A stretch of DNA of 19,254 nucleotides from Amoebophrya sp. A120 (GCA_905178155.1 CAJINV010000056.1:1-19254), one strand, 5' to 3'. Positions 1-19,254 are shown, counted from the stretch's first letter. A program made the numbers and translations. The notes: generated by a model not told the origin, from the sequence alone.

Positions 1-292
1 TTGAAATCGTCAAAGTTGAAATAATTTGTAATGCATAAAATGGATGCCAGTTGGAGCCCAGTTTTCAAGTGGCGCATGACAAATTTCGGTGGCCCCGAAA
101 TCCAGTTTGTCATGCTGTTTAGGCAACGAAGAGTGATTTTCTCATCCTACTTTAGCAGCTCGAGCTGTAACCCCAAACAGGCTTTACAATCGGCCTCACT
201 TGCCTGCTCTGCAACACACGTACCTCGGGTCATGCATTTTATGCATTACAAATTATTTCAACTTTGACGATTTCAAACCTGACGCTCCCATA
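1..292. mobile_element. Introner family A copy A1 (left end just outside the window), opposite orientation to A2-A5
   Basis: Bases 1-40 are the inverted complement of ~237-276; ends ..CCTGACGCTCCCATA at 292. The interior resembles the reverse complement of 3203-3510. Confidence 0.9.
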
Positions 293-3200
293 CAGCGGCG
301 CACCGACTCCGCGGACATTCTGGAGGCCGTGGTGTCCATATCCTGTGCAAAAGTATCGCACTCGTATAAATGCAAGTCTTGCATTGCAAATCCTTTTCTT
401 AAGGTAAGTCCGCATTTACAAATGATCTCATTTCTCATGCTGAGGGAATTTGTAATGCATTTATACGAGTACGATACTTTTGCAATTCATAGTCCAAACG
501 GCATTCCGTGTTCGAGAAAGCGCAGCAGGAACGGTTATGCTGTGGAAAAACGTAAGTTGAAGTTAGTACCCATAATTTTCACCCCAGAGTTGTCATGCGG
601 ATTTGCATGTAGTTTTCCTTTTCTACAATGGAATGTGTCTCATGCGCAGCCCCATGAGGTTGAGGAGCATCTTCCAAGCAGGCTCTTTTGGAATGTTTTT
701 GCTGATGCCGTACTCATCAGGATCAGGATCAGCTAAGACAGGCGATTTCTGATGTGGATATTTCACTGCGAATGCAACGGCGACTACAAGTACAACATGG
801 ACCCAAGTTTGTCATGCGTTTCTGTCTAACCTTCTGCACTTGTGTAGCAGAGTGAAGAGCATCATCAGTTTGACTATGGGGTAAGTAGTACTTCGGGTTC
901 TCTTTTACGCAGAATACCACTGGGCGTATGACGCGGCAATCAATCTAAACGCTGGCGTGGACGAGGACGAGAGCATCGACCCGACGATGAAAATGAAGAT
1001 CCCCGGCGTCCTCCCCGGCGCCGCGGGGCTGACGCTGCGGGTCTTGTCGACCGAGGGGACTAACTCGGTGGAAACCAGAGCCAAGCAGCTTGCCGCCTTT
1101 GACCAGCTTATCCTGTGCAAAAGTATCGTACTCGTAGTAATTGCAATCACGCATGACAAATTCCCCATCTTCGGCAAATCGGCACTACAAATTGTAATGC
1201 AATTTACATATACTAGTACGATACTCTTTCTCTTGCAATGCATACAGCTGGTGCAGGAGCAGATCGAGGCAATCACGAAACCCGAGGTAATGGACGAGGT
1301 CTACCGGTTCGGCCCGCCGAAGAGGGAAATAAAGACGGAGGAGGGGAGTCGGAGTCGCCGTGTGAAAGATAAACCTGAAATCATTCCAACGGAAGTAATA
1401 GAACAGCCCGAAAATAACCAGATCTTTTCCTCCAGTGCGGAAGTTACGCCGGTGCAGGAGGAGCCAGAGGATAGCGAGCTGCACGAACCGCGGGTCGTGG
1501 CGCTCTCCTCGTCCAACGACGGTGGTGGTACCAACACCCCAAGTCTCGAACCCAGTGTGAGCAACGCAGCTGCTCTACTAGAGGTGGCGGAGAATCATGA
1601 TCCCCAAACAGGCCTGCAGGAGCAGCACACACCGACTTCCAGTGCGGTCGACGGTGATGTACTGTCTTCAAACGTATCAAATGCAAAAGTGTCTGGGTCT
1701 GGAATGTTGCAGGGTTTGTCATGCATATTTTGCACGACCCAGGATGTCTGTGATGCACGACCTAGCATCACAGATTTTTAGAGGGCTTCCTGATGCCTAC
1801 TCCTTATGACAAATGCCCTCCCCGCGTAGCACAAACTAGATTCCTCTTGCTGGTCATGCAATACAGAGGTTTTTAGAGTACAAAGTTAGCTGCGTCACAA
1901 GTTCCAACCTTGCAGACCCAGACATTTTTACATTTGATAAAACGCGCCGGACAACAATTACGTGGTCGCAGGGACATCAACTGCAGCAGCTTCAAGAACC
2001 GCTGCACAGACACGGGCCACACTAGCGGGGATCATGATGGACAGGCGGCAAACGCAGACAAGTCAGTCCGGGCCCGCTAGAACAAGTAGCGCAACAACGC
2101 TGAAAAACAACGTCGATGATGTTGTTCTTTCACAGCCGCAGGAGTCGAGCAGCAAGGCCACACCGGCGTCCTCGGAAGTGGCCCCTTTTTCGCTTGCGAA
2201 CGACGTCCTCGGGGATGACGAGATGTTGAAAGAGGGGATGCGGCAGGGGTCCTCGGCGGGCTCGCAGAAAGAAATTAGAACAAGCGAGGCACCTGTTGCT
2301 GAGGGGCGAAAGAGCAGTAGAGAAATTGTAAACAACTCAGCGTCGGCAAGCAGGACGTCGAAAATATTAACTAAGCCTGTCGATGACGCAGCGGCAGTCG
2401 ATCCTGCGGCTTTGGTAGAAGGAGACGGTGGACTTCAGGTACAAGAAAGATCTTCTGCAGCTGCTGCCGAACAGCAAACCCCTGTGACCAAGGTACAACT
2501 AGTGGAGACCCAAGAAAGCAATAGCGGCGTGGCCTCGTCCGCTCCTTCGGAGCCCGCTGCACAACTCCTCGCGGGAGGTACTACGGCAGCACAAAAAGCA
2601 CCTAGTACGGAGGACAACGTAGTACACGGTCTCGTAGACGCGACCGCTTCGCAGATGACCGGAGACGAGGCAAGCGAAAGCGTCGCCGTCCCGCTTGTAG
2701 AGGGAGCGCACCAGGTATCCAGGAAAAAACACCCATCCCCATCCAATTTGTCATGCAAAACATGCATAAAGTCCACTATTTGTCATGCAAAAAATTGATG
2801 GGGATGGGTGTTTTTTCCTGGATACCAGGAACAAGAACAACAGCACAACTTCGTGTTTTACCCGGCTGCATCAAGTAGCTCCTCTGTCAAGCTTCTGAAC
2901 AGGAGTGGTCAACAACGAGGAGTTGAAGATAATAACGCCCAGCAGCCATCAACTGCATCAAGTAGAACATCGCCCTTTGAGTTTGACCAAAACGCAGCGG
3001 CCCTGTTTGACCACCAGCATCAAATCGCGTTTGGGAAACAAGTAGAACATCACGAAGAAGCTCCTGCGCCTTTTGCAACCGGGAAGACGATGCAGAAGAA
3101 GAAGCTGAAACTGGTGAACAGAAGTCGCGAGGGATCGAAGACGAGGGGGTCCGCAGCTCCGGGTGTCTCGACGACGTCAAATTTCAAACATGATACGAGC

Positions 3201-3585
3201 AGTATGGGAGTGTCAGGATTGAAATCGTCAAAGTTGAAATAGTTTGTGATGCATAAAATGCAACCCACAAAGTGCCTGTCTTGCAGAGTAGGCAAGGGAG
3301 GCAGATTGTAAGCCTGTTGCGGAGTAGAAATAGAGCTGCTAAAGTAGCATGACAAAAGGCGTCTTCCTTACTCAAACAGCATGACAGACTGGATTTCGGT
3401 TCTACTCAAATTTGTCATGCGCCGCTTGGAAATTGGGCTTCCAACTGGTATCCGTTTTATGCATCACAAATTATTTCAACTCTGACGATTTCGATTCTGA
3501 CACTCCCATAAGCAGTAGTGGTAGCAGCTCCAGTGCAAGCGCATCTTTGGCGGAGGTTTTGGCGACACAGGTACCTACTACTTAA
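293..3585 (+). CDS. Gene 1, 5'-truncated multi-exon hypothetical protein with long Ser/Ala/Glu/Gln-rich region; approximate exons 293/298-338, 497-535, 922-1108, 1250-1674, 1945-2715, 2830-3202, 3516-3585
   Basis: Removing each element plus 5 nt joins ORF pieces 957.., 1962.., 2808.. in frame: ..DILEAVVS/KRHSVFEKAQQER/WAYDAAINL..FDQL/VQEQ..LSSN/APDN..AHQ/EQEQ..DTS/SSGSS..QVPTT* (TAA 3583-3585). The 535/922 junction and the true 3' end are less certain. No family recognised. Confidence 0.75.
339..491. mobile_element. Introner family B copy B1 (153 bp)
   Basis: TATCCTGTGCAAAAGTATCGCACTCGTATAAATGCA ... TGCATTTATACGAGTACGATACTTTTGCAATTCATA; TSD GTCCA at 334-338 and 492-496. Confidence 0.92.
536..916. 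mobile_element. Probable degenerate introner L1 (381 bp)
   Basis: TATGCTG..CAGAATA ends with weak TIR; TTGTCATGC motifs at ~590 and ~809. Removal plus 5 nt restores frame (QER/WAYD). TSD poor (ACGGT/CCACT). Confidence 0.5.
1109..1244. mobile_element. Introner family B copy B2 (136 bp)
   Basis: Same left end as B1 (TATCCTGTGCAAAAGTATCG); ends ..TGCATA; TSD CAGCT at 1104-1108 and 1245-1249. Confidence 0.92.
1675..1939. mobile_element. Introner C1 (265 bp)
   Basis: TATCAAATGCAAAAGTGTCTGGGTCTG ... CAGACCCAGACATTTTTACATTTGATA; TSD AAACG at 1670-1674 and 1940-1944; 270-nt removal joins ORFs 957 and 1962. Confidence 0.93.
2716..2824. mobile_element. Introner D1 (109 bp), removable as canonical GT-AG intron 2715-2828
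   Basis: Perfect 28-bp TIR TATCCAGGAAAAAACACCCATCCCCATC; TSD CCAGG at 2711-2715 and 2825-2829; two internal TTTGTCATGC. Confidence 0.95.
3203..3510. mobile_element. Introner family A copy A2 (308 bp)
   Basis: TATGGGAGTGTCAGGATTGAAATCGTC ... GACGATTTCGATTCTGACACTCCCATA; TIR ~55 bp; TSD AGCAG at 3198-3202 and 3511-3515. Confidence 0.95.
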
Positions 3586-4399
3586 CTCAAAACCGCCTTA
3601 GAAAGTAATCATTTCTTAACGAATTCAGAATGAATTCAGAATTCCAGCAATTTTACACTTTGGCTCGACGTTTTAGGGGCCTGAGTCCTCGCGCCTGGTT
3701 ATCGATCGACGGAGCATCAACGTGCCCCTAGGTGGCTACAAAACGGGCTTCGTCGTTGCTATTCAAAGCGATTTGGGGATCTGTCACGCGCTTGATTTCT
3801 CAAGGGTGGCGGCCTCACGTACGACACAGCGGCAGTTACAGCCCCGCTGCTGCCGTTTTTCCTGCTACATGCGTCATGCCCACGATACTGCTCTAGAATG
3901 TAGCCGAGCGCGCCGCGGCTTCATACAGCGCATCGCAGCACAGGGCCGGCTTCAGAAGGCCGCCTGGGTTTGTAGCGCACCCATTCGCGCCGAGGCTTCC
4001 TACAGATATACACAAAGCAAGCCCTCAGCTGGTGGCGAGGTTTTCATGCGTCAACTATTCTGCAAGACGAAATAGGGCGTGTGGGGGCCCTTCGACTTTC
4101 CTGCTTCGGGCCGCCACTGTATAAGCGTCTTCATGCGCGAAAGACAGGGACTTTCTTGGTCTGGCAAGATTCTGCAGCAATTCAACGCCATTGCTGCCCC
4201 CAACGTCATGGCCTTGCACGCCGCCAGCCGCGCACTTGCCTCTGGCGAATGGGCCCTGATTCCCGGGTCATGAAAGACCGCAGGCCATAGCGAGGAACCA
4301 CCCTGGCCTGTGTTTTTTTCGAGGGAAGCGGCCCGGCGTCCAGCTAGGTCATTGAAGAAAAGGCGGGCCAGCGAGCATCTTGCGGAAGGGTCCGACACC

Positions 4400-4509
4400 A
4401 ATTTCTAAATTAAGTTGGAAAAGAGTTGAAAAAAGTTGGATCAGAGATTTCAAGTGGGGGAAAGCTTTCCAACTATTTCCAAACTCGTTTCCAACTTAAT
4501 TCTGAAATT
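4400..4509. repeat. Inverted repeat (22-bp arms) abutting the 30-bp array
   Basis: AATTTCTAAATTAAGTTGGAAA (4400-4421) versus TTTCCAACTTAATTCTGAAATT (4488-4509); extra GTTGGA/TCCAAC copies inside. Confidence 0.75.
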
Positions 4510-4675
4510 GTCCCGGGCCGCCAATTAAATTCTGAAATTGATTGAGGGCGCCAATTAAATTCTGAATTCCCTATCGGCCGCCAATTAAATTCTGAAATCT
4601 ATCTTGGCCGCCTATTAAATTCTGAAATCCCCTCCGCCGCCCAATTTTATTCTGAATCTGGTCCGCCCGGCCCAA
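4491..4675. repeat. Tandem array, exact 30-bp period, ~6 units: conserved CCGCCAATTAAATTCTGAAAT plus ~9 variable nt
   Basis: TCTGAA starts at 4501, 4531, 4561, 4591, 4621 and 4651. Confidence 0.9.
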
Positions 4676-4961
4676 TGCGTTCTTGTAAAACAAGTACGCC
4701 ATTGTCGAGGCTTTTGGTCGTTTCGCATCTATCAAAAGGGAGCAAAATGATTGCCGGGGCTCTGTTTCGCTGCATCATCTTGCTTGCGTATTTGCTTCTT
4801 GGGATCTGGCATCGTGAGTTCCATGGGCTCCGGGCCAGAGGGGCTTCGCGCCGACCGAGGGACCTGGGATGTCTTTTCCGACACCTTGTCCAATCCGGTC
4901 CGCATTTTGTGCGCGTATTTTTTTGTGATCGTCGGGGCCCCTCGAGCGAGCGACGCTTGCA

Positions 4962-5037
4962 AGTAGTGGTAGCAGCTCCAGTGCAAGCGCATCTTTGGCG
5001 GAGGTTTTGGGGTCGGCGACAGAGGTACCTACTACTT
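4962..5037 (+). repeat. Direct duplicate of the last exon of gene 1 (3514-3583)
   Basis: 49-bp identity AGTAGTGGTAGC...GAGGTTTTGG (3514-3562 = 4962-5010), then GCGACA(C/G)AGGTACCTACTACTT in both with a 6-nt indel. Confidence 0.9.
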
Positions 5038-5230
5038 TAGCTACATCATTTATTGGATTGTCGTACGAGAGATACGTACTGGTAACACGATTTTTCTGCA
5101 ACCTGTTTCATCATGTTGTGGCAACTGCTGTGGTGGTCCGAGACATCGATAGTTTTACGCCTGCTTACTACGTTTTCCCATGAAGATGTGGGTAAAAAGA
5201 ACAAAGATTAATCATATGTCTTTCGTTCAG

Positions 5231-6006
5231 CCCGCGCCCCTTCCTGACTGGAAGTACGAGCATCCAAAGCGACTGTATCGAAGAAAAAAACTGTGTAAGT
5301 GTAACTTTCTTGCAGGAGCAGCATCATAGATTTGTTTTGCATGACAGAAAACTTGTCATGCGTAGCTAGTACGCTAAAACACGTACTAAAATAGCCTCTG
5401 ATGCATATGCGGCGTGACAAGGCGTGTAACTGTATTGCAACATCTGCAAGACAAAGTTACACTTACACAGTTTTTTTCTTGCATAGCCTGACACCAACGA
5501 CCAGTGCGACCAACAAACCGGGTTCCGCCAGCACGATCCCACCCGGCTACGACGAAGCAGTGGATGTGACCAGTCGCGACGAGTTCTCAAACGCACTACA
5601 ACATCAGAGCAGAAAACTCTACTCCCGCGGAGATGAAGAAGAGAAAACAGCTTCGAAAACATCATCTTCGGCTTCTTCGAAAAGCAGAAGTAACACCAGA
5701 AAGGACAAACTTAAGACTTCCAAGACAGCGGCAGGAAGAACTTCTTCTACAAGTGGCGCTCCTGCTGCACCCGCAACGTCGAGCAGTCGTGTGTTGGAGT
5801 TGTACCACCGAGCTGCAAAAAGTTTCAGCCCAGACGGGGTGACGGGGGCGAATTCTGATTTGGTACAACGTCAGAGCAGTCAGAATGCTAGGCGACATGA
5901 GGAGGTGGAGGTGGAACCAGAGGACGCTTGGTCCGCGAGCATGGCCGAAAAGTTCGAGCATGTTCTGCACCGAAAAGAGGCTTTGCTGGAGGAAATGTCC
6001 AAATAA
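5231..6006 (+). CDS. Gene 2 or terminal exons of gene 1; Ser/Thr/Lys-rich hypothetical protein, exons ~5231-5274 and ~5487-6006, 5' end unresolved
   Basis: Acceptor-like TTTCGTTCAG at 5221-5230; PAPLPDWKYEHPKRL joins LTPTTSATNKPG..EEMSK* (TAA 6004-6006) after E1 removal. Confidence 0.55.
5276..5485. mobile_element. Introner E1 (210 bp)
   Basis: TATCGAAGAAAAAAACTGTGTAAGTGTAACTTT ... AAAGTTACACTTACACAGTTTTTTTCTTGCATA; TSD GACTG/GCCTG (4 of 5). Confidence 0.9.
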
Positions 6007-6894
6007 AGAAAAACGCGGAAAAACCGAAAAATCGAGATTGAAAATGTCTGAGAAAATTTAGTTTTATGATTCTTGGGAAAATGCCAAAAGAGACAAGCTA
6101 TTCTACTTTTCAAAACAAGTAGGTCCTGACGAATTCGTTTCAGTTTCAGTTTCAAGTATAAACAAGTCAAAAACGAAAACGTACTTACGACTTGCTGCCA
6201 AAATGTCCGACCAATTGAAGGCAGTGGTTTGATATCTGGCCAAATGTTAAATGGTAATGCTGCAACATCTGCGAGCAGGACAGGCACAGGATGCAATACT
6301 TGAAAACAGCTACAACTACTAGAATCCGCATGATATATATGATGAGTGAAGACAGTTGTCAGCATTGGCGCCACTTGTACTTCTGAAACAAGCAACCATT
6401 CCAGCACTGCGGGCGCAGTGGATACAACGAACTTACTAAGCTCTTGGTTTCTCCCCGTCCGCCTTTACTTACTTGTAACGGGTATATTTTGCTTGTTCGG
6501 ACAGAAGCTGCGAAGTTATTTTTTCGCGGATTCATTCTTGAGTGTCCAATGTCGTTGTGGCGAGATTTGAATTTCGCTTTGGTTTCGCGCTCCGATCGTT
6601 GTTTCCAGCTCGCCATACCAACGAATTTGAATCGATAGTCGAGATCGTATTGTCGTCTAGTATCGTAATATGTTTCAGTTACAGTTTCACAAAATCGATA
6701 TAAAACGTATCTTGCGCATCAAAGTTGATGAATACAAGGTTCCACGTAGTAGTACCCGCTTCCGCAGTGTGGGTTCGTGAGCGCGAGATTTGTGCGAAAA
6801 ATGGGTAGACCTAGACTCGACAACATCCTGGAGACTAGTAAAAAAATCGGTTTATTTCTCGACGTCGTGGGACTCGTACACTGCAAATGCAAAT

Positions 6895-7201
6895 TATGGA
6901 TGTGTCAGGATCGAAATCGACAAAGTCGAAAAATTTGTAATGCGTAGAATGTAGGGCAAGTAAGGCCTGTGTTGGGGAGTAGGCAAATGAGACGGATTGC
7001 AAGCCTGATTACGGGAAGGCGATGTGCTGCCGGAGCAGCACACCAGGAGCAGTCTTCTTTGCCCAAACAGCATGACAGACTGGATTTTGGTGCTCCCGAA
7101 ATTTGTCATGCGCCACTTGGAAACTGAGGCTCCAAGTGGTATCGATTTTATGCATCACAAATTATTTCGATTTTGTTGATTTCGATTCTGACACTCCCAT
7201 A
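6895..7201. mobile_element. Family A copy A3 (307 bp), apparently outside a long CDS
   Basis: TATGGATGTGTCAGGATCGAAATC ... GATTTCGATTCTGACACTCCCATA; TSD CAAAT at 6890-6894 and 7202-7206. Confidence 0.95.
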
Positions 7202-7595
7202 CAAATCTAGATCTACACACTGTTTTCGTCGTGACTTCGCTCGCAGTTCTCTCGATCATGAAATTATACAGCGAAGATGAGTAATATGAGATGCAATCCT
7301 CCATGTCGTGCACCGAGGTTTACGTTTAGATAGCATGGGACGGGCTATGGAGGGCGAGGGGTTGCGATACTGTAAGTGGGGGTTTGTTGAAGAATGCGAG
7401 AAATCGTCTTGCAAGCCAAATCCTCCTGAAGTACGACTTGCTTCTGGATCGTGCAGTCACAAATGCTGAGATAAAACAAAAAAACAAAATAGGCGGCAAC
7501 ATATCAAACAGTGTCTCTACTGTTGATAGAAAATGACGACCGCCACTTAGGGCGGGCTGTACCTAATGATTGTGTAGCGAATAATTATCCACCGA

Positions 7596-10500
7596 ATGAT
7601 CATGGGCGCTGTGCTAGGTAGAATTCTGGTTCACGGTGTCGCGGGTGCCGCGTGCTTCGCCACTGCCCGAAAAGTTGTCACAAAGAACGAGAAGGAGACT
7701 ACACTTCTGCATGCAGAGGACGGTGGTGTCGACGACCTCCTGGGCGGGTTGCTAAATGTAGACAACCTGGCGTACTATGATGCAGCGCTGAACATGTTAC
7801 CCGCAGGCGCAGACGCGGCCCCAACGGCGGACGAGACAGAGGCGTTGCATGATGCGGTGGCCGAGATACTGAATTTGGATGGATTATGGATGTGTCAGGA
7901 TCGAAATCGACAAAGTCGAAAAAATGCATAAAATGTACGTCACTGAAGGCCTGTATTGGGGAGCAGGCAAATGAGACCGATTGCAAGCCTGTTTAGGGGT
8001 ATAAAATGTTCTGCCAGAGTAGCACGACAGGGGGAGTCTTCTTTGCCCAAACAGCATGACAGACTGGATTTGGGTGCTTCCGAAATTCGTCATGCGCCAC
8101 TTGGAAACTGAGGCTCCAACTGACATCGATTTTGTGCATTACAAATTTTGCGATTTTGTCAATTTCGATTCTGACACTTCCATATGGACCTGAAGACGCC
8201 AAGGAGTTGGAAAAAACACTCGCCGATGGCATCACCGGCGAGGAGCTGCAAAAGGCACTCGATGTTGAGAACGACAGGGACGCAGCGCGCGAGTTGGCGG
8301 ACAAATTCCAAGAGCATTGGCTGGCCGAGAACACGGGCGATAGTGGCGCATTTGACGGTTCGAAAGGCCCGCCCTACCCCTCGGACACCTACAAGAGCGC
8401 GGAGTATGGGTATGCCCACATCGGAGACGGCAAACTGCCCATCGAGGAAGACGAATGGCGAAAGGCCCATCCCAGAAGCTGGAAGGCGGGTGATTTCTTT
8501 ATGGCTGATAAGAACCAAGACAATGAGATCGATGGTATGGATGTGTCAGGATTGAAATCGCCAAAGTTGGAATGATTTGTCACGCAAATAATGCAGCCCA
8601 CAAAGAAACAAAGTGCCTGTCTTGCAGAGTAGGCAAGTGAGGCACATTGTAAGCCTGTTGAGGGGTAGCAACTGAGGTGCTAAAATAGCATGACAGGAGC
8701 AGTCTTCTTTGCCGAAACAGCATGACAGACTGGATTTCGGCTCTGCCCAAATTTGTCATGCACCGCTTGAAAATTGTAATTGGGCTTCTGACTGGTATCG
8801 ATATTATGCATTGCCTTTGTCGATTTCAATCCTGACACTCCCATAGAGGTGGAGGTGCAGGACGAACTACTCGCCTTGCAGGAGGAGCAGCACGGCCTGG
8901 ACTCCAACCAGGCGTTGCACATCGGCATCGATGGTCTTACCAGGGCGCAGAAAGACGCACTACACCTTGGACCGGCGCAAACCCTCGACGAAGACAAGGC
9001 TCTGCTGAAAGCGGCAGCGGATCTGAAAATCGACGTCAGCGACGGGACGATTACCTCTGAGGAGTTGAAACAACATCTGCACACCGAATCCGAAAGTGAT
9101 ATGGGACACTCAAACGTTACATTCTCAACTGTTACATGAATTTGTCATGCAAAAGCACCTTAAGCTGGCAGATGATCAGGCTGCTTCGCATGACAAATTT
9201 CGCTCAAGTTGATAGAGTGTTTACACAAAGGAGATAGACGCGACTCTCCTGCGGCGCGCTTCTAGCGCCGTTCTTCAACTTCTTTCGCACATGAAGATGA
9301 TGCAGCGTAGTACTTCCCGTTCCCTGCTTCTTTTCGCATTGCTCTCATCGTCCTTCACCTCCATTGCCTCGGCAGTATCTCTACAGAGGTCCTCGTCTTT
9401 CCCAAGCGCAAGTACTACCAACCCGCCCCATCAAGCAGGTCAAACACCCATCAACCCGAACTTGCCGGACCTACCCCGAGGACAAGCACATTTTCAGTCT
9501 CAACAGCAGCCCCGTTTTGCAGCAGGAAGCGCAGCAGGAGGAACTGCCGCAGGAACTGGTGTTCAGGGGTCTGCAGGAGGAGCACAGGTTCCCCCCGGCC
9601 ATCATCTACAACACCATGTAGGCCACAGTCAACAACAACACCAACATATTGATGAAAAGAACCACAACCCGAAGAACAGCAAAACTCCAACTCCGCCAAC
9701 AGCAACAGGTGGTATTGCCGCGTCCTACTTCAACGCGTTTTCTTGTACTTCAGAGGACCTGATCCAACCCGCATCCTCCCTCCTTTGCAGCTCTCACCAC
9801 AGCTACAACCACCGGCAGGCGTCCAAAGCCTCCGCTTGCTCCACGGCGGCATCCTCGACTGGTTGTAGTGTTCCAGCCACAGTCGCAGCCGAAGTGCGCA
9901 ATGCCAAGCGGACTAACAACCAGCACCCCGTTATCATATGTAAAAGCATCCCCACACCATAGTCAAGATGGGACCTCTGCAACACAAATCCCCAAGTTTT
10001 GGGAGTTCTGCATGACAAATTTGGCCCCATAGTGCAATCCTGTTTAGCTAGTTCAGAAGCATCACAGATCTAGCATATCATGCAGATTGGAGCATGACAA
10101 ATCGCGAAACACGACTAAAGCATGCCTCTCATGGGGCTCCGCATGAGAAACATTTTTACCATGCAGATTTGCATGACAACTCTGGGGTTGCGAGTTGGAA
10201 GTTTGCGAGTTGGAAGTTTGCGAGAATCAGAGTAAGGAATTGTTGGCAAAAAAGTGAGGCGTTGTTCTGTTGGCAAGTGGGCACAAGTTGGCACAGTATG
10301 GCTGTTGGCACAGTATGGATATGGTTGGTGGCGATAACAGAGTTGGAATATAGTGGCCGGGAGATGATGGTGATGGCACTTTGGCGTCCGCCTGACCCAC
10401 CCGCCCTGCGTCTCAAGCCATCTGCGGCCATGGCACAATGGGGGGGCAAAGTGTGTCGCATTTTGTTTAGCATGACAAATTTCGCTTGGGCTAAACAGCA

Positions 10501-13500
10501 TCTAAATCTGCAGCAAACTACTTGTAATGCCACGGGCGCAGTCTTCCTCCTTTCACTTTTGCCAGTCTTGTATTACAAATTCATGTAACTACAGTTGAGA
10601 ATGTAACATTTGAGAACTCCATAAGTGAAGCCGCAAAACTTTTCGCCAAGGGGTTTCAGGCGGCGTGGACAGAGCAGGTCGGCTATCAAACAAAAAAAGT
10701 TCGTCACGATCACTCATGCGCATTTTTGCAATACAAAACTTTCTGTCATGCGTAAAAATGCATTACAGCCAAACTTCATAAGGGATTTCCCTAGTGTTTC
10801 TGCAATACAGGGAAAAGCTGTGATGCTGAAAAAATTTGTAATGTAAAACCTGCAAGGTAGTGATGTGACTGTGACAAACTTTTTTCTCTCCATATCGGCG
10901 GCGAGGACGGCATTATTGCCGGGAAGGAGTACGATATCGCAGGAAAAAACTTTTTCACTGTAAACTTGGAATGCAGCAAATCTACCTCAGAAGGGTTTGT
11001 CTGGCTACACATGCAAGACAGTGGATTTTTCGCTGTGTTTTCTCTTAGGAACCTTGCATGGCAAATCTTCTCTGTCATGTATAACAAACCTGTGAGGCAA
11101 AGCTTGCAAAATCCTTACAGTGAAACAGTTTTTTCTTGCGATATACGCGAAAATCGGCGACGGACAACCGCTACGGATTGCAAACATGTAGTGTTGGTCT
11201 GGGAATAAATTGCCGGGCTTGTCATGCTGGGCAAACAGGAGCGAGGGAAAGGTCTGTCATGCATGTGGCGATACAGTGGCAGAGGCAGTGCTATTGTTTG
11301 GCAGCCAAAAAAACCCTCACTCGTCGTCAAGCGCCTTACTGGCGCGAGTAGACGTCGTCGCCAAAAATATTGTGATGCGTGGCTCCGTAAGGTACTTCGA
11401 CCTTCGGCGCTTCATAAAATTATACCCAAACACTGCTTAGCCTTAATAGGGTTCACATTACAATTGTGAGCGCAAAGGCAAAGTAAGGAAAGAATATAAA
11501 CAAGTACCCTGGGATGAAGAATTTACTCGCGATGTTTTCGCGGTTCTCACCTATGTCGTTCTGGGACCTGCGGTCGCTTTCGCTCTTATTCTCTTCCGAT
11601 GATTACTTTACGTTACCCCCGCCTGGGTACCGTGGCGTCAGCATCCGCCCTGCATGGTTCTATGCGAAATGGAAATACATCGTGACGAGTCGGACTAGCC
11701 GACTTACGTCGACCTCCTGCCAGGTTTTAGCACCATCAGAAGTGCGTAACCCGGTCGATCTCTAAAAAAAAGTGGCGCGTCGGTACAGTTATATATAGTT
11801 AGCATCACAATTTTGATTTTCCAGACCCAGATGGCATATTTGCACTTGATAGCCCCCGCTGACGGCCGACGAGTGGCACGGGGACCCAAAGGTTTTTGCA
11901 TATAATTTGTGGGGAGGTGATGAAAAGGAGTTGTCCGCGGAACGGTTGGCCGGCTTAACAAGAACGCAGCTCGCGCCCGCAATGGGACTGTATGGACAGG
12001 ATTCCGCAGCACCTACGGATTCCGCAGCGTCGCTGACGATTTGGCAGAATGAAGCGCAAGCTGCTTTCGTCAAGACGCAGGGCACTGGTAAGGCTGATTC
12101 GTGGCTGATCACCCAGTCCCAGATGAACGATTTCATGCTCCCCAACAACGATTTGAACATGCTCCCCAACATGCTCGGCGATCGACATACCCTGTGGGAC
12201 AAAAGTCCTGCAGACCGGGCCCACTGGCTGCACGAATACTCGGAGAACTACGCGGCAGCGTTGCTGGATAGCGCCGAGAAGGCAGGCGGGCAACACGGCG
12301 ATCATCACGTTACTCTCACGGAAAACACCTTCGCAGCCGGAATCAATCTCGGAGACGGTCACCTGCCCGTTACCGCCGCGGAGTTCCCCGGTGGGGAGGA
12401 GCCCGGCGGGCTTTTCGACCAACTGGACAGTGATGGTGACGGAAAAATTGAAGAGAACGAACTGCCGGCCGACGTAGCGTATCCGTATCATCCTGTTGAT
12501 CCCGCAAACGAACCGGAAGGAGGAGCTGGCTCCTCGTCAGGTTCGGGTGGAACTACTGGTGGTGACTCCGCAAACACGGCATCCAACTCGGGAGGCAATG
12601 GTGAATTATCCGCAGGCGCGGAAGCGGAGCAAGCGGCTGGCAGCTCGGGAGGCCATGGTGAATCCGCAGGCGCGGAAGTGGAGCAAGCGACTGCCAGCTC
12701 GGGAGCCGAGGGGGAATCCGCAGGCACGGAACATGAGGCGAAAACTGCTACTCCCGCAAACGACCCGGGAGGAGAAGCTGGCTCCTCGTCAGGCTCGGGT
12801 GGAACCGGTGATGACTCTAGACAGTCGTTGCACATCGGCACTGACGGTCTTACCAGGGCGCAGAAAGACGCACTACACCTTGGACCGACGCAAACCCCCG
12901 ACGAAGCCAAGGCTCTGCTGAAAGCGGCAGCGGATCTGAAAATCGACGTCAGCGACGGGACGATTACCTCTGAGGAGTTAAAGCAAGCACTGCACACCGA
13001 ATCCGAAAGTGATATGGGACACTCAAACGTTACATTCTCAACTGTTACATGAATTTGTCATGCAAAAGCACCTTAAGCTGGCAGATGATCAGGCTGCTTC
13101 GCATGACAAATTCCGCTTGGGCTAAACAACATCTAAATCTGCAGCAAACTTGTAATGCCACGGGCGCAGTCTTCCTCCTTTCACCTTTGCCAGTCTTGTA
13201 TTAGTAACTACAGTTGAGAATGTAACATTTGAGAACTCCATAAGTGAAGCCGCAAAACTTTTCGCCGAGCACGTGCAGGCCCGCTGGCTGGACGAAAACG
13301 CGGGCGGGGATGAGGTGTTCGGGACCACGGGTAGCGGCGTTGACGAGCATGCCGCTATTGGGGACGGTCATGATCCGATCGAGAAGACCGAGTGGCACGG
13401 GGGAGACGAGGTCTTCGCAGCCGCGGACACGGACAACGACGAAACAATAGCCGAGGATGAACTGGCCCAGCTTCGGTACAAACAGCGAATGAACCAGATG

Positions 13501-16500
13501 GGACTCGACGTTTCGAAGCCCTTTCCGGTACCCGGCACCCCGGCGTACGACGCCCTGTCGCCGGACCAAAAGGATGCGCTGGAAAAGACAGCAGATGACA
13601 CGTTCCCCAACACCGGCGAAGGGACGGGCGGCGAGGAGAAAATAGCCAAACTGGCAAACGTTTTCCGACCGGGCGGCGGCGAGACAGGTAAAAGCGCAGC
13701 TCGTGCGGTACATTTTTACACGGACAACATTTTTGCGGAGCTCCGGACCCACGACGGGGGCAAGGAGGAAACATTAAACCTATCCGCCAAAGACGTGGAG
13801 GAGCTTGGGGACGGCAAGCTGCCGCTCACGGCAGCGGAGCTCCCGGGCACACACCGGGACAGCGAGGGCTCGTCCACACTGTACGATACATTCAAAACTC
13901 AGGACCAGAACGGCAACGGTCAGCTGGATGCAGAGGAGATGTGGTGGAAGGACGGAACGCCTCCGGCTTCCGTCAGGAACCATGACTGGGTCGCGGCCGC
14001 GGTCGGCGACAATTCGCAGGCGGGGCCCGCGAAAACGGTTTACAAAGATGAGGCGAACGCGGTGTTCGATGTGCTAAATAAAAAGTTTGACCTACCGGAC
14101 TCGTTTACCCCCGAGCAGTTGAGGCAGGCAACGGGCGCGTCGACAGACGAAGCGGCGCAGAAAATTTTCCTGGACAGTATGCAGGACACGTGGACTGCAA
14201 GGGTCACCGGCGATGACGATAACGGTTTGTTCAACAGTGCAGAGGAGCTGCAGCGGGTCGGCGACCACCATTTGCCCATAGAGCAGGCGGAATGGCACGG
14301 CGACCCGAGCGTTTTTGCGGCCGTCGCCGACCCGGAGACGCACCAAACCGAAGGCACAAGTGCTGCCACACTGGACAAGCTGCAGGACGCGCAGCAGAGT
14401 GTGGATGCGGGCTTCGTCCTCGATGAATCAGTCTCGCCACCGACCTGGAAAGCTCCGGTGGACGGCACACCCGCGGCGGACGCGCTGCAGGCCGTGATTA
14501 CGGACCACCATCCGCGCGTCGTTCCAGCGGGCGTGAATAGTGTGGACGATTTGAAAACGGAGTGGATGGACATGTCCGTCGAGGACCGTAAGGAGGTTCT
14601 AGACGCGATGCAATTTGAGAAGCTGGAAACAGCGGTGCGTGCACAAGATCCCAACCACTTTCCGCTGGGCGAGTTTGGTCCGGCGAACGAGCAGGACGTC
14701 ACAAAACTGGCGAGCTCACTTGGGGACGGCGCGCCCCCGCTGGAGAAGGCAGAGCTCCCCCTCGACGCCACGGTGGCGGACGCCATGGACAAAGATCATG
14801 ACGGACTCATCGAAGCCGGCGAAACGCTAGATCAGCCCCCCGCCGCGATCGTGAGCGAGGTGCTCCCCGACTGGGCGGGAAAAGGACTGACACACGACCA
14901 CTTCACCGCAGACGAACAGCAGATGCTGACGAAAACCCTGGACAAGCTGCATCTTTCCGCAGCGGACTTGCACGACCCGGGCAAGCTCAAAGACGCACTG
15001 GGGCTCGACGCCAGTGCGAGCGACGAGGCCGCGCACAGGGCTTTCGTGGAGGCGACGCAAGCCACGTGGACAGCGCAGGTCGGCGGCGTCGACGGCATTA
15101 TTTTTTCCAGGGACGAGTACGAGAAAATCGGCGATGGAATAAAATCGCTACGGAATGCAAACATGTAGTCTTGGTCTGGGAATAAATTGCCGGGCTTGAT
15201 GATGTCATGCTTGGCAAACAGGAGGGAAAGCAAAGGTCTGTCACGCGTGTAGCGATACAGTGGCAGAGGCAGTGCTATTGTTTGGCAGCCAAATAAAACC
15301 TCACTCGTCAGGTGCCTTAGTTGCGCAAGACGTCGTCGCCAAAAAAATTGTGATGCGTGGCTCCGTAAGCGTAAACTTCGACCTTCGGCGCTTCATAAAA
15401 TACCCAAACACTGCTTAGCCTTAGGGTTCGCATATAGCATCACAATTTTCACCCAGAACCAGATGGCATATTTGCACTTGGTAGCCACCCCTGACGGCCG
15501 ACGAATGGCACGGAGACCCGAAGGTTTTTGCATTGCAGACAGATGATGGTGAATACAAAGAAGCACTGTCCTGGGGACGGATGAAGAAAGTCGCAGGAAG
15601 GCAGCTCATGCCTGTCCTTGGGATGCCAATCCCCTCAACACCTCCACCGCCCACAGCGGCCGAGGTGTTTACGCCTGAAGTGCAAGCTGCTTTCGCCGCG
15701 ACGCAGGGCACTGGTGAGGCTGATTCGCACACAGTGGCCAAGATGATGAGCTTCCTGACCCCCGGGGACCACGGCACGGACCTGTTTGACAAAACTTCTG
15801 CAGACCGGGCCCAGTGGCTGCACGAATACTCGGAGAACTACGCGGCAGCGTTGCTGGATAGCGCCGGGAAGGCAGGCGGGCAAGTAGACGACGATCACGT
15901 TAAACTCACGGATGACACGTTCGCGGCCGCAATAAATCTCGGAGACGGTCACCTGCCCGTTACTGCCGCGGAGTTCCCCGGGGGGGAGGAGTCCGGCGGG
16001 CTTTTTGACCAACTGGACACTGATGATGACGGGAAAATTGAAGCGAGCGAACTGCCTGCCGTCGTAGCGCATGAAGATGAGGCGGAAACTGCTACTCCCG
16101 CAAACGACCCGGCAGGAGATGAAGCTGGCTCCTCGTCAGGCTCGCGTGGAACTACTGGTGGTGACTCAACAACGGCTGCTCCGGAGCACCAGGCGGATCC
16201 TGTTCCTGCCCCCGCGCCAGGCCCGGGAACCGGCGATGGCTCTGCAAACGCGGGATCAGAAGCGGGAACCGGTGACGGTGGCAGCGAGAGCCCGGCTCCA
16301 ACCCCGGCTTCACCCTCCCCTGCAGGCTCGGATGCCGAGGAAGATGGCAGCCGCGAGAGCCCGGCTCCAACCCCGGCTTCACCCTCCCCTGCAAGCTCGG
16401 ATGCCAAGGAAGAAACTGCTACTCCCGCACACGATCCGAAAGGAGATGAAGCTGGTCCCTCGTCAGGCTCGGGTGGAACTACTGGTGGTGACTCAACATC

Positions 16501-18741
16501 AACGGCTGCTCCGGTGCGGCGGTCGGTTCCTGTAGTTCCTGCCCCCGCGCCAGGCCCGGAAACCGGCGATGGATCTGCAAACGCGGGGCAAGCGGATGCC
16601 ACCTCGCCAGGCCCGGGAACCGATGGCGGCAGCAGCGCGAACCCGGCTTCAACCCCGGCTCCCTCCCCTTCTTCACCTGGCAGCTCGGGAGGCGAGGATG
16701 GGGAATCCGCAAGCGCGGTGGAACCAGCGGCTGGCAGGTCGGGAGGCGAGGATGGGGAACCCGCAAGCGCAGAACAAGCGGCTGGCAGCTCGGGAGGCGA
16801 TGCTGGGGAACCCGCAAGCGCGGAACAAGCGGCTGGCAGCTCGGGAGGCGATGCTGGGGAACCCGCAAGCGCGGAACAAGCGGCTGGCAGCTCGGGAGGC
16901 GAGGATGGGGAATCCGCAAGCGCGGTGGAACCAGCGGCTGGCAGGTCGGGAGGCGAAGATGGGGAACCCGCAAGCGCGGTGGAGCCAGCGGCTGGCAGCT
17001 CGGGAGGCGAGGATGGGGAACCCGCAAGGGCGGAACCCGCGGCTGGCAGCTCGGGAGGCGATGATGGGGAATCCGCAAGCGCGGGAAAAGCGGCTGACAG
17101 CTCGGAAGCCAATGATGACTCCGTAAACGTGGAGCAAGCGGATGCCACCTTGCAAGGCCCGGGAGCCGACGATGACTCCGCAAACGCGGGGCGGGCGGAT
17201 GCGTCCTCGTCAGGCTCGGGAACCGCTGCCGAGTCCGCAAATCAGGAGGGGAAAGAGGAACAAGGCGCTTCCTCGTCCAGCCCGTCATCTGGAGGTGCAG
17301 CTGGAGCAGCAGCTTCGACAGGAGATTCTTCTACTTCGGCAGATGAGAGTTCCACGAGCGCGGGTCCCCTGGCGGTGGTGAAAGAGCAGGTAGAAAAGAA
17401 GCCGATGGTCGCCGCAACTGCCGCAGGAGCAGGGGTCGTCGGAGGTGTCGGCTTGCTGGGGCGGCGCGCAGTCGTCGCGGCGCGCCGAAAGCGGAAGCGG
17501 GCAGGCGGCGGGTCGAAGAGAAAGAATCAAAAGTCGAAAAAGACGTCAGCATGGGGCAAGTACGACTTGAACAACCACGACCCTCCACCAAGAACACTCA
17601 TTGAAGTAGACACTTCGTTCACTGCAGAGGATATCGCAAGAAAAAACTGTTTCACTGTGATGCAGGAAATGGAACACAACGCTTTCTGTCTTGCTACACA
17701 TGCAAGACATAGGATTTTTCCGCGTGTTTTCATTTTGGAAACGCGCACGGCAAATTTTCTTTGTCACGTGTAACAAACTTGTGATGCAGATCTTGCAAAA
17801 TCATCACAGTGAAATACTTTTTTCTCGCGATAAAGGAGATTGCCCCTGCTCCGGTGGAGGAGCAGCAAACCACGGGCATGATCGCAGCGGAGGAACAGAC
17901 GCAGGGGAGTGCAGCATCAGTACCGGCACCGGTACTAGAGGAGGTAGCAGAAATAAATGCTGCTGTTGGCGGCAGTGCCACCTCCACCTCATTCACCAAG
18001 CCCACGGCTGCTTCACGCTCTTCTTTTGCGAGTGATGTGAAGGAGCAAGCGGAAGTTCTGCCCGGAACCGCTACGCCGGGGAACGAGACCAGTTTCTCGG
18101 CTTCGTTTCTTCAGCTGGGAGATGATATCATCGCGAGAAAACAGTGTTGAGGTTACACATTGTGTTGCGGGACAAGCAAGACTGATAGCGTTTGTCATTC
18201 CGACAGTGCATCGTCCAAGCCTCGTGTCATGCATTTTTTTTTCGTGTGATCTCTTTGTTTCTCTGCATTGATGATGCAAGCCTTCTTTATGTGCAGGACA
18301 AGTTTGTGATGCGAAACCGAAATTGTGTGCAACTACAAACGAGTGTGTACTTGCAAACACTTTTTTCCTCGGATAGGGGAGCCACTACCAGGTTCCTCGC
18401 CGACTTGGGCTTCTGCGACGGGAAGGAGTATTCCAGAAGGCGACAGTTGGAATGCTCGTGCACCCAAAGGACCGTCTCCGTCGCCCACTGTAAAAAGCAC
18501 CCCGGAAGAAGAAGAAGCACCAACACAAGGGCGGCCACAAGCTGCAGGCGGGAATCAGAAGAAACAAGAGAAACAACAGAACGCACAAAAAACGAATCTG
18601 CGAGGCGGAAGATTTGACAACAACATCAGCATCCTCGAGCTTCTTTCCGCTGACGGAGCACGACCGGTTTTGATGCTGTTGGAAATGCTGCTGGTTTTGT
18701 TGTGCCTACCGAAAATTTGTCTACTCTGTAAAAAGTTGTAA
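7596..18741 (+). CDS. Gene 3: ~2,280-aa acidic repeat protein, probably surface/membrane-bound, with EF-hand-like loops; 11 exons approx. 7596-7884, 8190-8534, 8847-9099, 10629-10683, 10900-10934, 11149-11171, 11857-13012, 13248-15148, 15489-17631, 17838-18125, 18381-18741
   Basis: All ten junctions stay in frame (exon sum 6849 nt by hand). Spliced junctions recreate internal repeat motifs (e.g. QVGGEDGIIAGKEYEKIGDGQPPLTADEW versus uninterrupted QVGGVDGIIFSRDEYEKIGDG at ~15075-15138). It has a hydrophobic N-terminus, DxDxDGxIxxxE loops and a hydrophobic stretch followed by RRKRKR at ~17400-17500. Confidence 0.8.
7885..8184. mobile_element. Introner family A copy A4 (300 bp)
   Basis: TATGGATGTGTCAGG ... 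TTCTGACACTTCCATA; TSD TGGAT/TGGAC; removal gives ILNLDG/PEDAKE. Confidence 0.93.
8536..8845. mobile_element. Introner family A copy A5 (310 bp); probable GT-AG intron 8535-8846
   Basis: TATGGATGTGTCAGGATTGAAATCG ... CGATTTCAATCCTGACACTCCCATA; flanks GATGG/GAGGT are degenerate. Confidence 0.9.
9291..9962 (+). pseudogene. Captured 5' fragment of a signal-peptide, Gln/His/Ser-rich gene nested in F1 (natural coding part ~9291-9931); could be functional as a short nested gene
   Basis: ATG-initiated 223-aa ORF MKMMQRSTSRSLLLFALLSSSFTSIASA.. with a signal-peptide-like pattern. It runs into an introner-like left end at 9932 and stops 10 codons later. Confidence 0.6.
9932..10486. mobile_element. Truncated introner-like segment G (left end only)
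   Basis: TATCATATGTAAAAGC resembles the C1 left end TATCAAATGCAAAAGT; GCATGACAA at ~10009, ~10092, ~10171 and 10470. No matching right end or CCCGT TSD. Confidence 0.55.
10684..10894. mobile_element. Introner H1 (211 bp)
   Basis: TATCAAACAAAAAAAGTTCGTCAC ... GTGACAAACTTTTTTCTCTCCATA; TSD TCGGC at 10679-10683 and 10895-10899; empty paralogous site at ~15079. Confidence 0.9.
10935..11143. mobile_element. Introner family I copy I1 (209 bp)
   Basis: TATCGCAGGAAAAAACTTTTTCACTGTAA ... TTACAGTGAAACAGTTTTTTCTTGCGATA; TSD TACGA/TACGC; empty paralogous site TACGA at 15118-15122. Confidence 0.93.
11172..11851. mobile_element. Introner family J copy J1 (680 bp, includes ~335-bp extra segment)
   Basis: TACGGATTGCAAACATG ... 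CATATTTGCACTTGATA; degenerate TSD ACCGC/GCCCC; removal gives GDGQP/PLTADEW; homologous to J2. Confidence 0.8.
13013..13242. mobile_element. Introner family F copy F2 (230 bp, no cargo)
   Basis: Same ends as F1; TSD AGTGA at 13008-13012 and 13243-13247; joins HTESES/EAAKLFAEHV. Confidence 0.95.
15149..15483. mobile_element. Introner family J copy J2 (335 bp)
   Basis: TACGGAATGCAAACATG ... CATATTTGCACTTGGTA; degenerate TSD ATCGC/GCCAC; removal plus 5 nt joins ORFs 13273 and 15533 in frame. Confidence 0.82.
16679..17095 (+). repeat. Coding minisatellite, 8 units of 51/54 bp (G[SR]SGG[ED][DA]GE[SP]ASA(V)E[PQ]AA)
   Basis: Unit starts at 16679, 16733, 16784, 16835, 16886, 16940, 16994 and 17045; related units at ~12580-12730. 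Confidence 0.95.
17632..17832. mobile_element. Introner family I copy I2 (201 bp)
   Basis: TATCGCAAGAAAAAACTGTTTCACTGTGATG ... CATCACAGTGAAATACTTTTTTCTCGCGATA; TSD GAGGA/AAGGA; interior similar to I1. Confidence 0.93.
18126..18375. mobile_element. Introner K1 (250 bp)
   Basis: TATCATCGCGAGAAAACAGTGTT ... AAACACTTTTTTTCCTCGGATA; degenerate TSD GATGA/GGGGA; TTTGTCAT/TTTGTGATGC motifs; 255-nt removal joins LQLGD/EPLPGSS. Confidence 0.78.
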
Positions 18742-18828
18742 AACCAAACTAAAGCTGCAACGAAAATGAAATGTATTTACGAAGATAAACAGGTATGCGT
18801 AATCTGGTAACCAAATGCGTGCGCGCGC

Positions 18829-18879
18829 GCGCGCAGAGCGCGCGCCGGCCCACGAAGCCGGCGCGCGCGCTCTGCGCGC
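18829..18879. repeat. GC-rich inverted repeat / hairpin
   Basis: GCGCGCAGAGCGCGCGCCGGC-CCACGAA-GCCGGCGCGCGCGCTCTGCGCGC (21-bp stem with a 2-nt bulge). Confidence 0.8.
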
Positions 18880-19254
18880 TTGCGATATTGCTTAGCAAAC
18901 GCAGCGCGAAGGCAGTTGCCGTTACCATATAGGGCAACCGCCGGGAGGCGTGAAGGTCAGGGAAATGGCCAGAAATGAAGCGGGAGAAGGGAAAAAAAGC
19001 GGACCAGATGGGAAAATGCCCAGGAGGTCAAAAATGTCGCAAAAATGGCAGAAACCAAGCGGGAGAAGGTGAAAAAAGAGCATTTTTGCGGTTTGGCTCA
19101 CTTGATATCTGAAAAAGAGACGCACTATTTTTTGCTCCGCCCGGTGGCCAGATGCGTTGGAGAAGCAGGCCCGCGACCTGTCCGGAAGCCTTGGGCCGCT
19201 TCGTAACTGGAAAAAGTTGGAAAAAAATGGCAAAAAATTGCTTCATAACGTGGG

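What the first reader, a model, noticed from the sequence alone, without database searches (positions are those of the whole stretch)
1..18375. Genes whose introns are almost all TIR transposons: 19 introners of about 10 families obeying one rule (TAY...RTA plus 5-bp TSD)
Seen: elements with mostly unrelated interiors share TAT/TAC..ATA/GTA termini, TIRs and a 5-bp flanking duplication. Excising element plus 5 nt keeps frame at every coding junction I could test, including ten in a row in gene 3. Only D1 can be removed precisely with GT-AG; most others offer no GT/GC-AG pair in any of the six equivalent registers. Known: introners with inverted and short direct repeats and mostly non-canonical splice sites are described in Amoebophrya, so the class is not new. 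Inference: splicing here is guided by TIR pairing and the direct repeat rather than by dinucleotides; the mechanism is, to my knowledge, unresolved.
Basis: partly seen in the sequence, partly recalled or inferred. Interest (0 to 1): 0.8.

Follow-up and report, generated by a model that had tools for sequence, protein, structure and literature searches.

The report
Known Amoebophrya introners, one fixed cut
Nineteen small hairpin-ended mobile elements sit in and between two genes of the plankton parasite Amoebophrya A120, and the eleven that transcript assemblies span are missing to the base although ten lack GT-AG splice signals; this intron type is already published, and the added detail is that the cut likely always falls one base before and four bases after the element.

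Summary
Observation confirmed; the class is already known. The window is Amoebophrya sp. A120: an exon matches an A120 protein at 100%, and that public model already omits these introns. There are 19 elements in about 10 families: 18 complete (TAY…RTA ends, terminal inverted repeats) and one cut by the window start. Eighteen are in exons and one is between genes. Transcript contigs (one sample) skip exactly element + 5 nt at 11 of 11 spanned elements; only one has GT-AG. Farhat et al. 2021 described these introner elements (TAT-N7-AAA ends, short direct repeats). Refinements: (1) decayed duplications leave one common cut, intron = N+TAY…RTA+NNNN, but separating this from a one-base shift rests on one low-depth contig; (2) two elements with only 2/5 repeat match are still removed exactly, so the direct repeat does not guide splicing; (3) nearly all elements share an internal motif, TGT[ACG]ATGC (55 hits inside, 0 outside), likely a transposase site. 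The machinery is unproven: a U1-less spliceosome is likeliest. The scan reported this system, the same cut and a shared motif on other pieces of this genome.

The parts
1..292 (.). Family A element (5' end outside window; inverted relative to 3203-3510); intron of gene 2
   Evidence: RNA contig enters the window at 293 with upstream exon as loose end
293..6006 (+). Gene 2, last 818 codons of a 1475-aa LRR protein of Amoebophrya sp. A120 (P0001)
339..491 (.). Family B element, flanks 5/5; inferred intron 338-495
   Evidence: RNA joint 333>492
536..916 (.). Family C element, flanks 2/5; inferred intron 535-920; allows only registers 4 or 5
   Evidence: RNA joint 534>921
1109..1244 (.). Family B element, flanks 5/5; retention would keep the frame open, yet it is removed
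   Evidence: RNA joint 1103>1245
1675..1939 (.). Family D element, flanks 5/5; high-copy family
   Evidence: RNA joint 1669>1940
2716..2824 (.). Family E palindromic element, flanks 5/5; the only one with GT-AG (2715-2828, register 4)
   Evidence: RNA joint 2709>2824
3203..3510 (.). Family A element, flanks 5/5
   Evidence: RNA joint 3197>3511
3571..5230 (+). Ordinary GT-AG intron of 1660 nt, not an element
   Evidence: RNA joint 3567>5228, GT..AG at cut +3
5276..5485 (.). Family F element, flanks 4/5; registers 2-5
   Evidence: RNA joint 5272>5488
6895..7201 (.). Family A element between the two genes; not shown to be an intron
   Evidence: no joint listed
7596..18741 (+). Gene 3: predicted ~2281-aa repetitive EF-hand protein with a C-terminal hydrophobic segment, ten element introns
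   Evidence: four joints
7885..8184 (.). Family A element, flanks 4/5; intron inferred from frame
8536..8845 (.). Family A element, flanks 3/5; allows only registers 3 or 4
   Evidence: RNA joint 8533>8849, one contig at depth 3.6 in X1 only
9100..10623 (.). Family G element with ~1.29-kb internal insert, flanks 5/5; intron inferred from frame
9932..10188 (.). Nested copy of another family, 3' TIR missing
10684..10894 (.). Family H element, flanks 5/5; intron inferred from frame
10935..11143 (.). Family F element, flanks 4/5; intron inferred from frame
11172..11851 (.). Family I element (TAC..ATA), flanks 3/5, ~345 nt longer than its paralogue; intron inferred from frame
13013..13242 (.). Family G element, flanks 5/5; paralogue of 9100-10623 by intragenic duplication; intron inferred from frame
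15149..15483 (.). Family I element (TAC..GTA), flanks 2/5; registers 4 or 5
   Evidence: RNA joint 15147>15488
17632..17832 (.). Family F element, flanks 4/5; registers 1-5
   Evidence: RNA joint 17627>17834
18126..18375 (.). Family J element with degenerate TIR, flanks 3/5; registers 3-5
   Evidence: RNA joint 18123>18379

Best explanation
These are non-coding TIR elements with 5-bp flanking duplications, the published introner elements of Amoebophrya A120; transcript contigs lack each tested one as exactly element plus 5 bases, likely through a cut one base before the TAY end and four bases after the RTA end, likely made by a relaxed spliceosome that reads the paired element ends. Shown: anatomy, multi-copy families, exact absence from transcript contigs and presence in DNA contigs. 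Inferred steps: (a) a DDE transposase (not found) binds the shared ends and the TGT[ACG]ATGC motifs and inserts the element at an arbitrary 5-mer in either orientation; (b) the TIRs pair in the pre-mRNA and bring the ends together; (c) the element supplies U+2 and A+3 of a GU-A-like donor, while +1, -2 and -1 come from the target and are free; (d) ligation restores one copy of the target, so the frame is kept at any site and the duplication can later decay.
For:: 11 of 11 spanned elements skipped as element+5 nt; the same contigs skip a GT-AG intron, so they are spliced; allowed registers intersect at register 4 only, which is also where the single GT-AG pair lies; all 9 predominant A120 non-canonical classes in the published Table S4 have T at +2 (GT, CT, AT, TT), as register 4 predicts; all 9 A25 classes start TT; 205 of 313 TIR-defined elements in another assembly have an exact 5-bp duplication (0-3 for lengths 3, 4, 6-10; 28 for length 2).: +1 is G77/A60/T48/C47 of 232, like the exon background; one family lies 32 versus 30 in the two orientations (24 of 86 unresolved); ends predicted to pair in 17 of 18. 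A120 keeps nearly all spliceosomal proteins and U2/U4/U5/U6 but no U1 was found; in yeast U+2 pairs with U6 A51 while G+1 pairs with G-1, so +1 and -1 could be relaxed together (inference). Fritillaria TIR-derived non-canonical introns need the U2 spliceosome.
Against: Register 4 versus 5 rests on one contig at depth 3.6 (8533>8849); without it the set is {4,5}. All RNA contigs are one sample, their RNA status is the tool's guess, and contigs hide minor junctions. A DNA-only codon test of the register was inconclusive (left copy better 37, right 27 of 64 mismatches; at position 5, 5 versus 3 against the prediction). At 10935-11143 the element-free paralogue has the left copy's fifth base, which fits register 5 slightly better. 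Nothing here tests the spliceosome: no branch-point motif was found, a long stem would hide the donor from U6, and no preference for G+1 or AG is seen. The published paper calls splice sites variable relative to the hairpin.
Confidence: 0.5

Rival explanations
1. Same fixed cut, but by a non-spliceosomal, structure-measuring endonuclease and ligase that recognise the TAY/RTA stem base, as proposed for euglenid nonconventional introns.
For: No dinucleotide preference at either end; orientation-independent; the stem would bury the donor; no U1 found. Euglenid introns have a similar asymmetric geometry (pairing from +4 and -6) and are released as circles (review).
Against: The inferred cut reproduces U+2/A+3 of a normal donor and coincides with GT-AG in 2716-2824; GT-AG introns coexist in the same gene; the Fritillaria precedent is spliceosomal. 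No candidate enzyme was looked for.
Confidence: 0.27
2. RNA removal is real but the cut is not fixed: any register within the duplication is used and selection keeps those that restore the frame, as the published 'variable' splice sites suggest.
For: Five of 11 junctions are fully ambiguous; Farhat et al. report IRs 1-5 nt from annotated splice sites; annotated donors and acceptors of A120 families are mixed.
Against: Six informative junctions share one register; +2 T in 9 of 9 top published classes; mixed annotations are expected from aligner ambiguity inside direct repeats.
Confidence: 0.18
3. The elements are excised from DNA in the expressing stage (IES-like), leaving one target copy.
For: Element+one duplication is also what precise DNA excision would leave; the tool did not give the joined form in DNA runs.
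Against: Contigs of run X5 span element-exon junctions with the elements in place at depth 18-32; the skipping contigs also lack the GT-AG intron; junctions are chimeric between two non-identical flank copies. X5 may be the source of the assembly, so it is not independent.
Confidence: 0.04

Closest known systems
Introner elements (IEs) among non-canonical introns of Amoebophrya sp. A120 (Farhat et al. 2021, PMC7789003)
   Same: Same organism; IR ends starting TAT, seven variable bases, then AAA; 3-5-nt direct repeats; non-GT-AG junctions; RNA support; no internal transposase. The public model of gene 2 already omits these introns.
   Different: The paper leaves the border inside the repeat unresolved and calls it variable, and groups IEs into 1,954 families. 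In the passages read it gives no single cut rule and no shared internal motif.
A120 TIR-DNA introner families of Gozashti et al. 2025 (PMC12130899, Dataset sd07)
   Same: Mostly classed 'TIR DNA, superfamily unknown'; many per gene.
   Different: In the 22 of 58 rows seen, TSD calls range from 2 to 5 bp and mechanisms are mixed ('co-opt both', 'carry 5'', 'carry 3''); here one 5-bp rule fits.
IS3EU/GingerRoot DNA transposons (PMC10045372; PMC12730594)
   Same: TA..TA termini; fungal IS3EU end TAYGG..CCRTA with TIRs over 30 bp, like families A and G here (TATGG..CCATA).
   Different: IS3EU/GingerRoot TSDs are usually 6 bp, here 5 bp (0 of 313 exact at 6); no transposase found. hAT5 has 5-bp TSDs and remains an alternative.
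Non-canonical MITE-derived introns of Fritillaria borealis (bioRxiv 10.1101/2025.08.15.670264; review PMC11282704)
   Same: TIR elements turned into non-GT-AG introns; U2 spliceosome needed.
   Different: Dominant AG-AC/AG-AT ends and conserved U1 there; here +1, -2 and -1 look free and U1 was not found.
Euglenid nonconventional introns (PMC4770533)
   Same: Paired ends at fixed offsets from the junctions, direct repeats, probable MITE origin, unknown removal.
   Different: Pairing core CAG/CTG at +4..6/-8..-6 and pyrimidine|purine junction bias; here the stem starts at +2/-5 with TAY/RTA.

Membership tests
Amoebophrya A120 introner elements | Host genome is A120 | tested here: met
   Exon 1944-2714 is 100% identical over 100% to a protein named Amoebophrya sp. 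A120; last 818 aa identical to the spliced model
Amoebophrya A120 introner elements | Terminal inverted repeats starting TAT, 7 variable nt, then >=3 A | tested here: met
   16 of 18 start TAT; A-run at positions 11-14 in most families, family A (TATGG..TGTCAG) departs; definition
Amoebophrya A120 introner elements | 3-5-nt direct repeat at the exon/intron border | tested here: met
   5/5 in 9 of 18, >=3/5 in 16 of 18
Amoebophrya A120 introner elements | Removed from transcripts at non-GT-AG sites | tested here: met
   11 of 11 spanned; 10 non-canonical; 7 complete elements not spanned
Amoebophrya A120 introner elements | Repeated, in families | tested here: met
   Within-window families; 12 of 19 have long homologues in 402 kb of other loci; 26,277 contigs laid from run X5
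MITE / non-autonomous TIR DNA transposon | TIRs, fixed-length TSD, no coding capacity | tested here: met
   Exact 5 bp in 205 of 313; no Pfam hit in two ORFs of the longest element
MITE / non-autonomous TIR DNA transposon | Cognate autonomous transposase | tested here: inconclusive
   No long ORF (max 151 aa) in 5 of 6 long candidates examined; whole genome not available
IS3EU/GingerRoot | TA..TA (TAY..RTA) termini | tested here: met
IS3EU/GingerRoot | 6-bp TSD | tested here: not met
   0 of 313 exact at 6 bp, 205 at 5 bp
IS3EU/GingerRoot | IS3/IS481-like DDE transposase | not testable with these tools
   no autonomous element in hand
U2-type spliceosomal intron | GT/GC-AG ends | tested here: not met
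   1 of 18 in window; 19 of 232 in any register elsewhere
U2-type spliceosomal intron | Lariat intermediate, snRNP dependence | not testable with these tools
   no raw reads of this strain were offered; contigs cannot show lariats

The most novel reading that the evidence does not exclude
All A120 introner families are one transposon lineage (IS3EU-like ends, 5-bp TSD, shared TGT[ACG]ATGC binding motif), and the cell removes any copy, at any site and in either orientation, with a dedicated non-spliceosomal ruler that cuts 1 nt before and 4 nt after the TAY/RTA stem: a second nuclear mRNA-splicing pathway evolved to neutralise one transposon.
Probability: 0.2. Interest if true: 0.8.

Novelty: already known. 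Interest (0 to 1): 0.33.

Why it matters
The system is published and these introns are already in the public gene model, so the window adds no new class. The refinements make the open question testable: a fixed N|TAY…RTA|NNNN cut turns 'variable splice sites' into one rule, explains why insertion at any site is frame-neutral, allows correct re-annotation of tens of thousands of introns, and says exactly where to look for lariats or circles. The shared motif suggests that about 2,000 families depend on one transposase lineage, which the original study did not find in A120.

Tried and rejected
No whole genome was held, so there was no genome-wide BLAST or transposase search. No listed holder was on record as RNA. 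Three of the 15 joints shown (10510>10594, 18822>18861, 18826>18882; sides 20-23 nt) do not match elements and were set aside as repeat or paralogue artefacts; 2 more joints were not shown. Direct repeat as splicing guide: rejected (2/5 flanks still removed exactly). Shared motif as branch point: considered because GCAT[CGT]ACA resembles a UnAC core (recalled consensus), then rejected as obligatory: 5 of 11 RNA-confirmed introns have no sense copy, and the 3' sense copy is not better kept than the 5' mirror copy (3' only 42, 5' only 62, both 89, neither 39 of 232). Codon-likelihood test of the register: inconclusive. Strict covariation of +1 and -1: not seen among the 11 junctions. Homologue search with exon 13243-15144, longer proteins only: none. 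Window motifs in the supplements of PMC12130899: 0 hits in 14 files. In one search one element was entered with wrong ends (11170-11850); corrected. Earlier findings near this window: none.

Full report
Observation. A scan for TAY…RTA pairs with a 5-bp flanking repeat, the repeat tables and self-BLAST gave 19 elements in about 10 families: 18 complete and one cut by the window start. Exact repeat plus TIR >=9/14 gave 10 hits against 0.43 in 30 shuffles; without the TIR filter the rule is no better than chance (19 against 24). Flanks match 5/5 in 9 of 18, 4/5 in 4, 3/5 in 3 and 2/5 in 2. Removing element+5 nt opens 818 codons for gene 2 and a 2287-codon frame over ten elements for gene 3. Retaining any one of the 17 complete coding elements gives an early stop, except 1109-1244. 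Only 2716-2824 has GT/GC-AG in any register. Element 6895-7201 is intergenic, and gene 2 has one ordinary GT-AG intron (3571-5230), so 18 of 19 introns are elements.

Organism. Exon 1944-2714 matches a 1475-aa LRR protein named Amoebophrya sp. A120 at 100%. Its last 818 residues equal my spliced gene 2 for registers 3-5, so the public annotation already removes these introns. Gene 3 encodes a repetitive EF-hand protein; a search among longer proteins found no homologue (weak evidence).

Transcripts and DNA. Contigs of runs X1-X4 (one sample; RNA status is the tool's guess, but they skip the GT-AG intron) show 15 joints, with 2 more not shown. Eleven equal element+5 nt exactly, one is the GT-AG intron and three are short-sided joints unrelated to elements. 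Seven complete elements were not spanned. Contigs of run X5 carry the elements in place at depth 18-32, and copies from other loci break off at the same termini. X5 may be the assembly's source, and stage-specific DNA excision was not directly tested.

Where the cut lies. Mismatched flanks limit the cut: 536 allows registers 4-5, 15149 4-5, 8536 3-4, 18126 3-5, 5276 2-5, 17632 1-5; five junctions are uninformative. The only shared register is 4: intron = N + TAY…RTA + NNNN. That is also where the one GT-AG pair falls. In the published Table S4 all 9 predominant A120 non-canonical classes have T at +2, as register 4 predicts. Against: excluding register 5 depends on one contig at depth 3.6; a codon test on 64 mismatches was inconclusive; the paralogue of site 10935 slightly favours register 5. 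Two elements with 2/5 flanks are removed exactly, so the direct repeat is a footprint of insertion and not a splicing guide.

Other loci. A scan with one family's TIR returned 154 stretches; the 80 listed all come from one other assembly. The 152 loci on disk (402 kb, biased to that family) held 313 TIR-defined elements, 205 with an exact 5-bp duplication and at most 3 at lengths 3, 4 or 6-10 (TAY/RTA ends were imposed by my search). With a second filter, 232 of 324 could be oriented by reading frame: +1 is G77/A60/T48/C47, GT..AG occurs at register 4 in 7, and GT/GC..AG in any register in 19. No RNA was tested there. One family lies 32 versus 30 in the two orientations. Codon phase of the duplication is uneven (104/68/60, p=0.0008), which equals an excess of phase-0 introns under register 4 (or 1); I have no explanation.

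Shared motif. TGT[ACG]ATGC has 55 hits on both strands, all inside elements (6,411 nt), none in the other 12,843 nt, in 18 of 19 elements; shuffles give 0.61. It is present in 293 of 313 elements elsewhere and peaks 40-44 nt from each end in mirror orientation. It is not an obligatory branch point. A subterminal transposase-binding site is the likeliest reading (inference from TIR transposon biology, recalled). The ends resemble IS3EU (TAYGG..CCRTA), but the TSD is 5 bp, not 6, so membership is not claimed. No transposase was found.

Mechanism. Ends are predicted to pair in 17 of 18 elements in context; 18126-18375 pairs only when folded alone and with an offset, yet is cut by the same rule, so the terminal sequence probably counts too. 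The best reading is a U1-less spliceosome guided by the paired ends: the element supplies U+2 and A+3, while +1 and -1, which pair with each other in the yeast P complex, are both freed. This is inference. A euglenid-like non-spliceosomal route is a serious rival.

Literature seen. PMC7789003: abstract, sections 10, 11, 16, passages, and supplement passages including Table S4 rows; its figures (S19-S25, Fig. 3 logos) are images I could not see and may show the register or the motif. PMC12130899: passages, supplement passages, 22 of 58 A120 rows of sd07. PMC11282704, PMC12005148, PMC10045372, PMC12730594, PMC4770533: passages. bioRxiv 2025.08.15.670264: introduction and passages. bioRxiv 212811: abstract and section 4. 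Roy et al. 2023 and Henriet et al. 2019 were seen only as cited. Searches listed no paper on the A120 removal mechanism, but subscription papers are not covered.

Verdict. A real feature of an already published class in the same genome. The fixed cut and shared motif are useful refinements that I reached before consulting earlier notes; the scan had noted both on other pieces of this genome (unreviewed AI notes, not independent support). Interest 0.33.

Noticed in passing
window 9200-10487: Insert of ~1.29 kb in the family G element, flanked by a 16-nt direct repeat containing the shared motif (9188-9203, 10470-10485); other family copies lack it (joint 9199>10488). It holds a 248-codon Q/T-rich open frame without Pfam hit and a nested element copy lacking its 3' TIR (9932-~10188).
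   Followed up: partly
window 3571-5230: The GT-AG intron holds a 91% copy of the preceding exon and donor (4962-5037), a 30-bp tandem array (4486-4665) and a stretch (3582-4045) with a diverged copy elsewhere.
   Followed up: partly
window 7596-18741: Large repetitive EF-hand protein with a hydrophobic N-terminus and a C-terminal hydrophobic segment followed by a basic run; possibly a surface protein. Internal duplications copied two introners (9100/13013, 11172/15149), while 10935 is absent from the paralogous repeat.
   Followed up: partly
window 11455-11800: About 345 nt present in 11172-11851 but not in its paralogue 15149-15483; no match in the fetched loci.
   Followed up: partly
loci L001-L152: Uneven codon phase of the duplications (104/68/60 of 232), i.e. 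a phase-0 excess under register 4; unexplained.
   Followed up: partly
window 1897-1939: Raw RNA reads of run X8 match only this element end at 90-95%, so that library holds a related terminus but not these exons.
   Followed up: no
window 18814-18882: GC-repeat palindrome downstream of gene 3, with related copies elsewhere.
   Followed up: no
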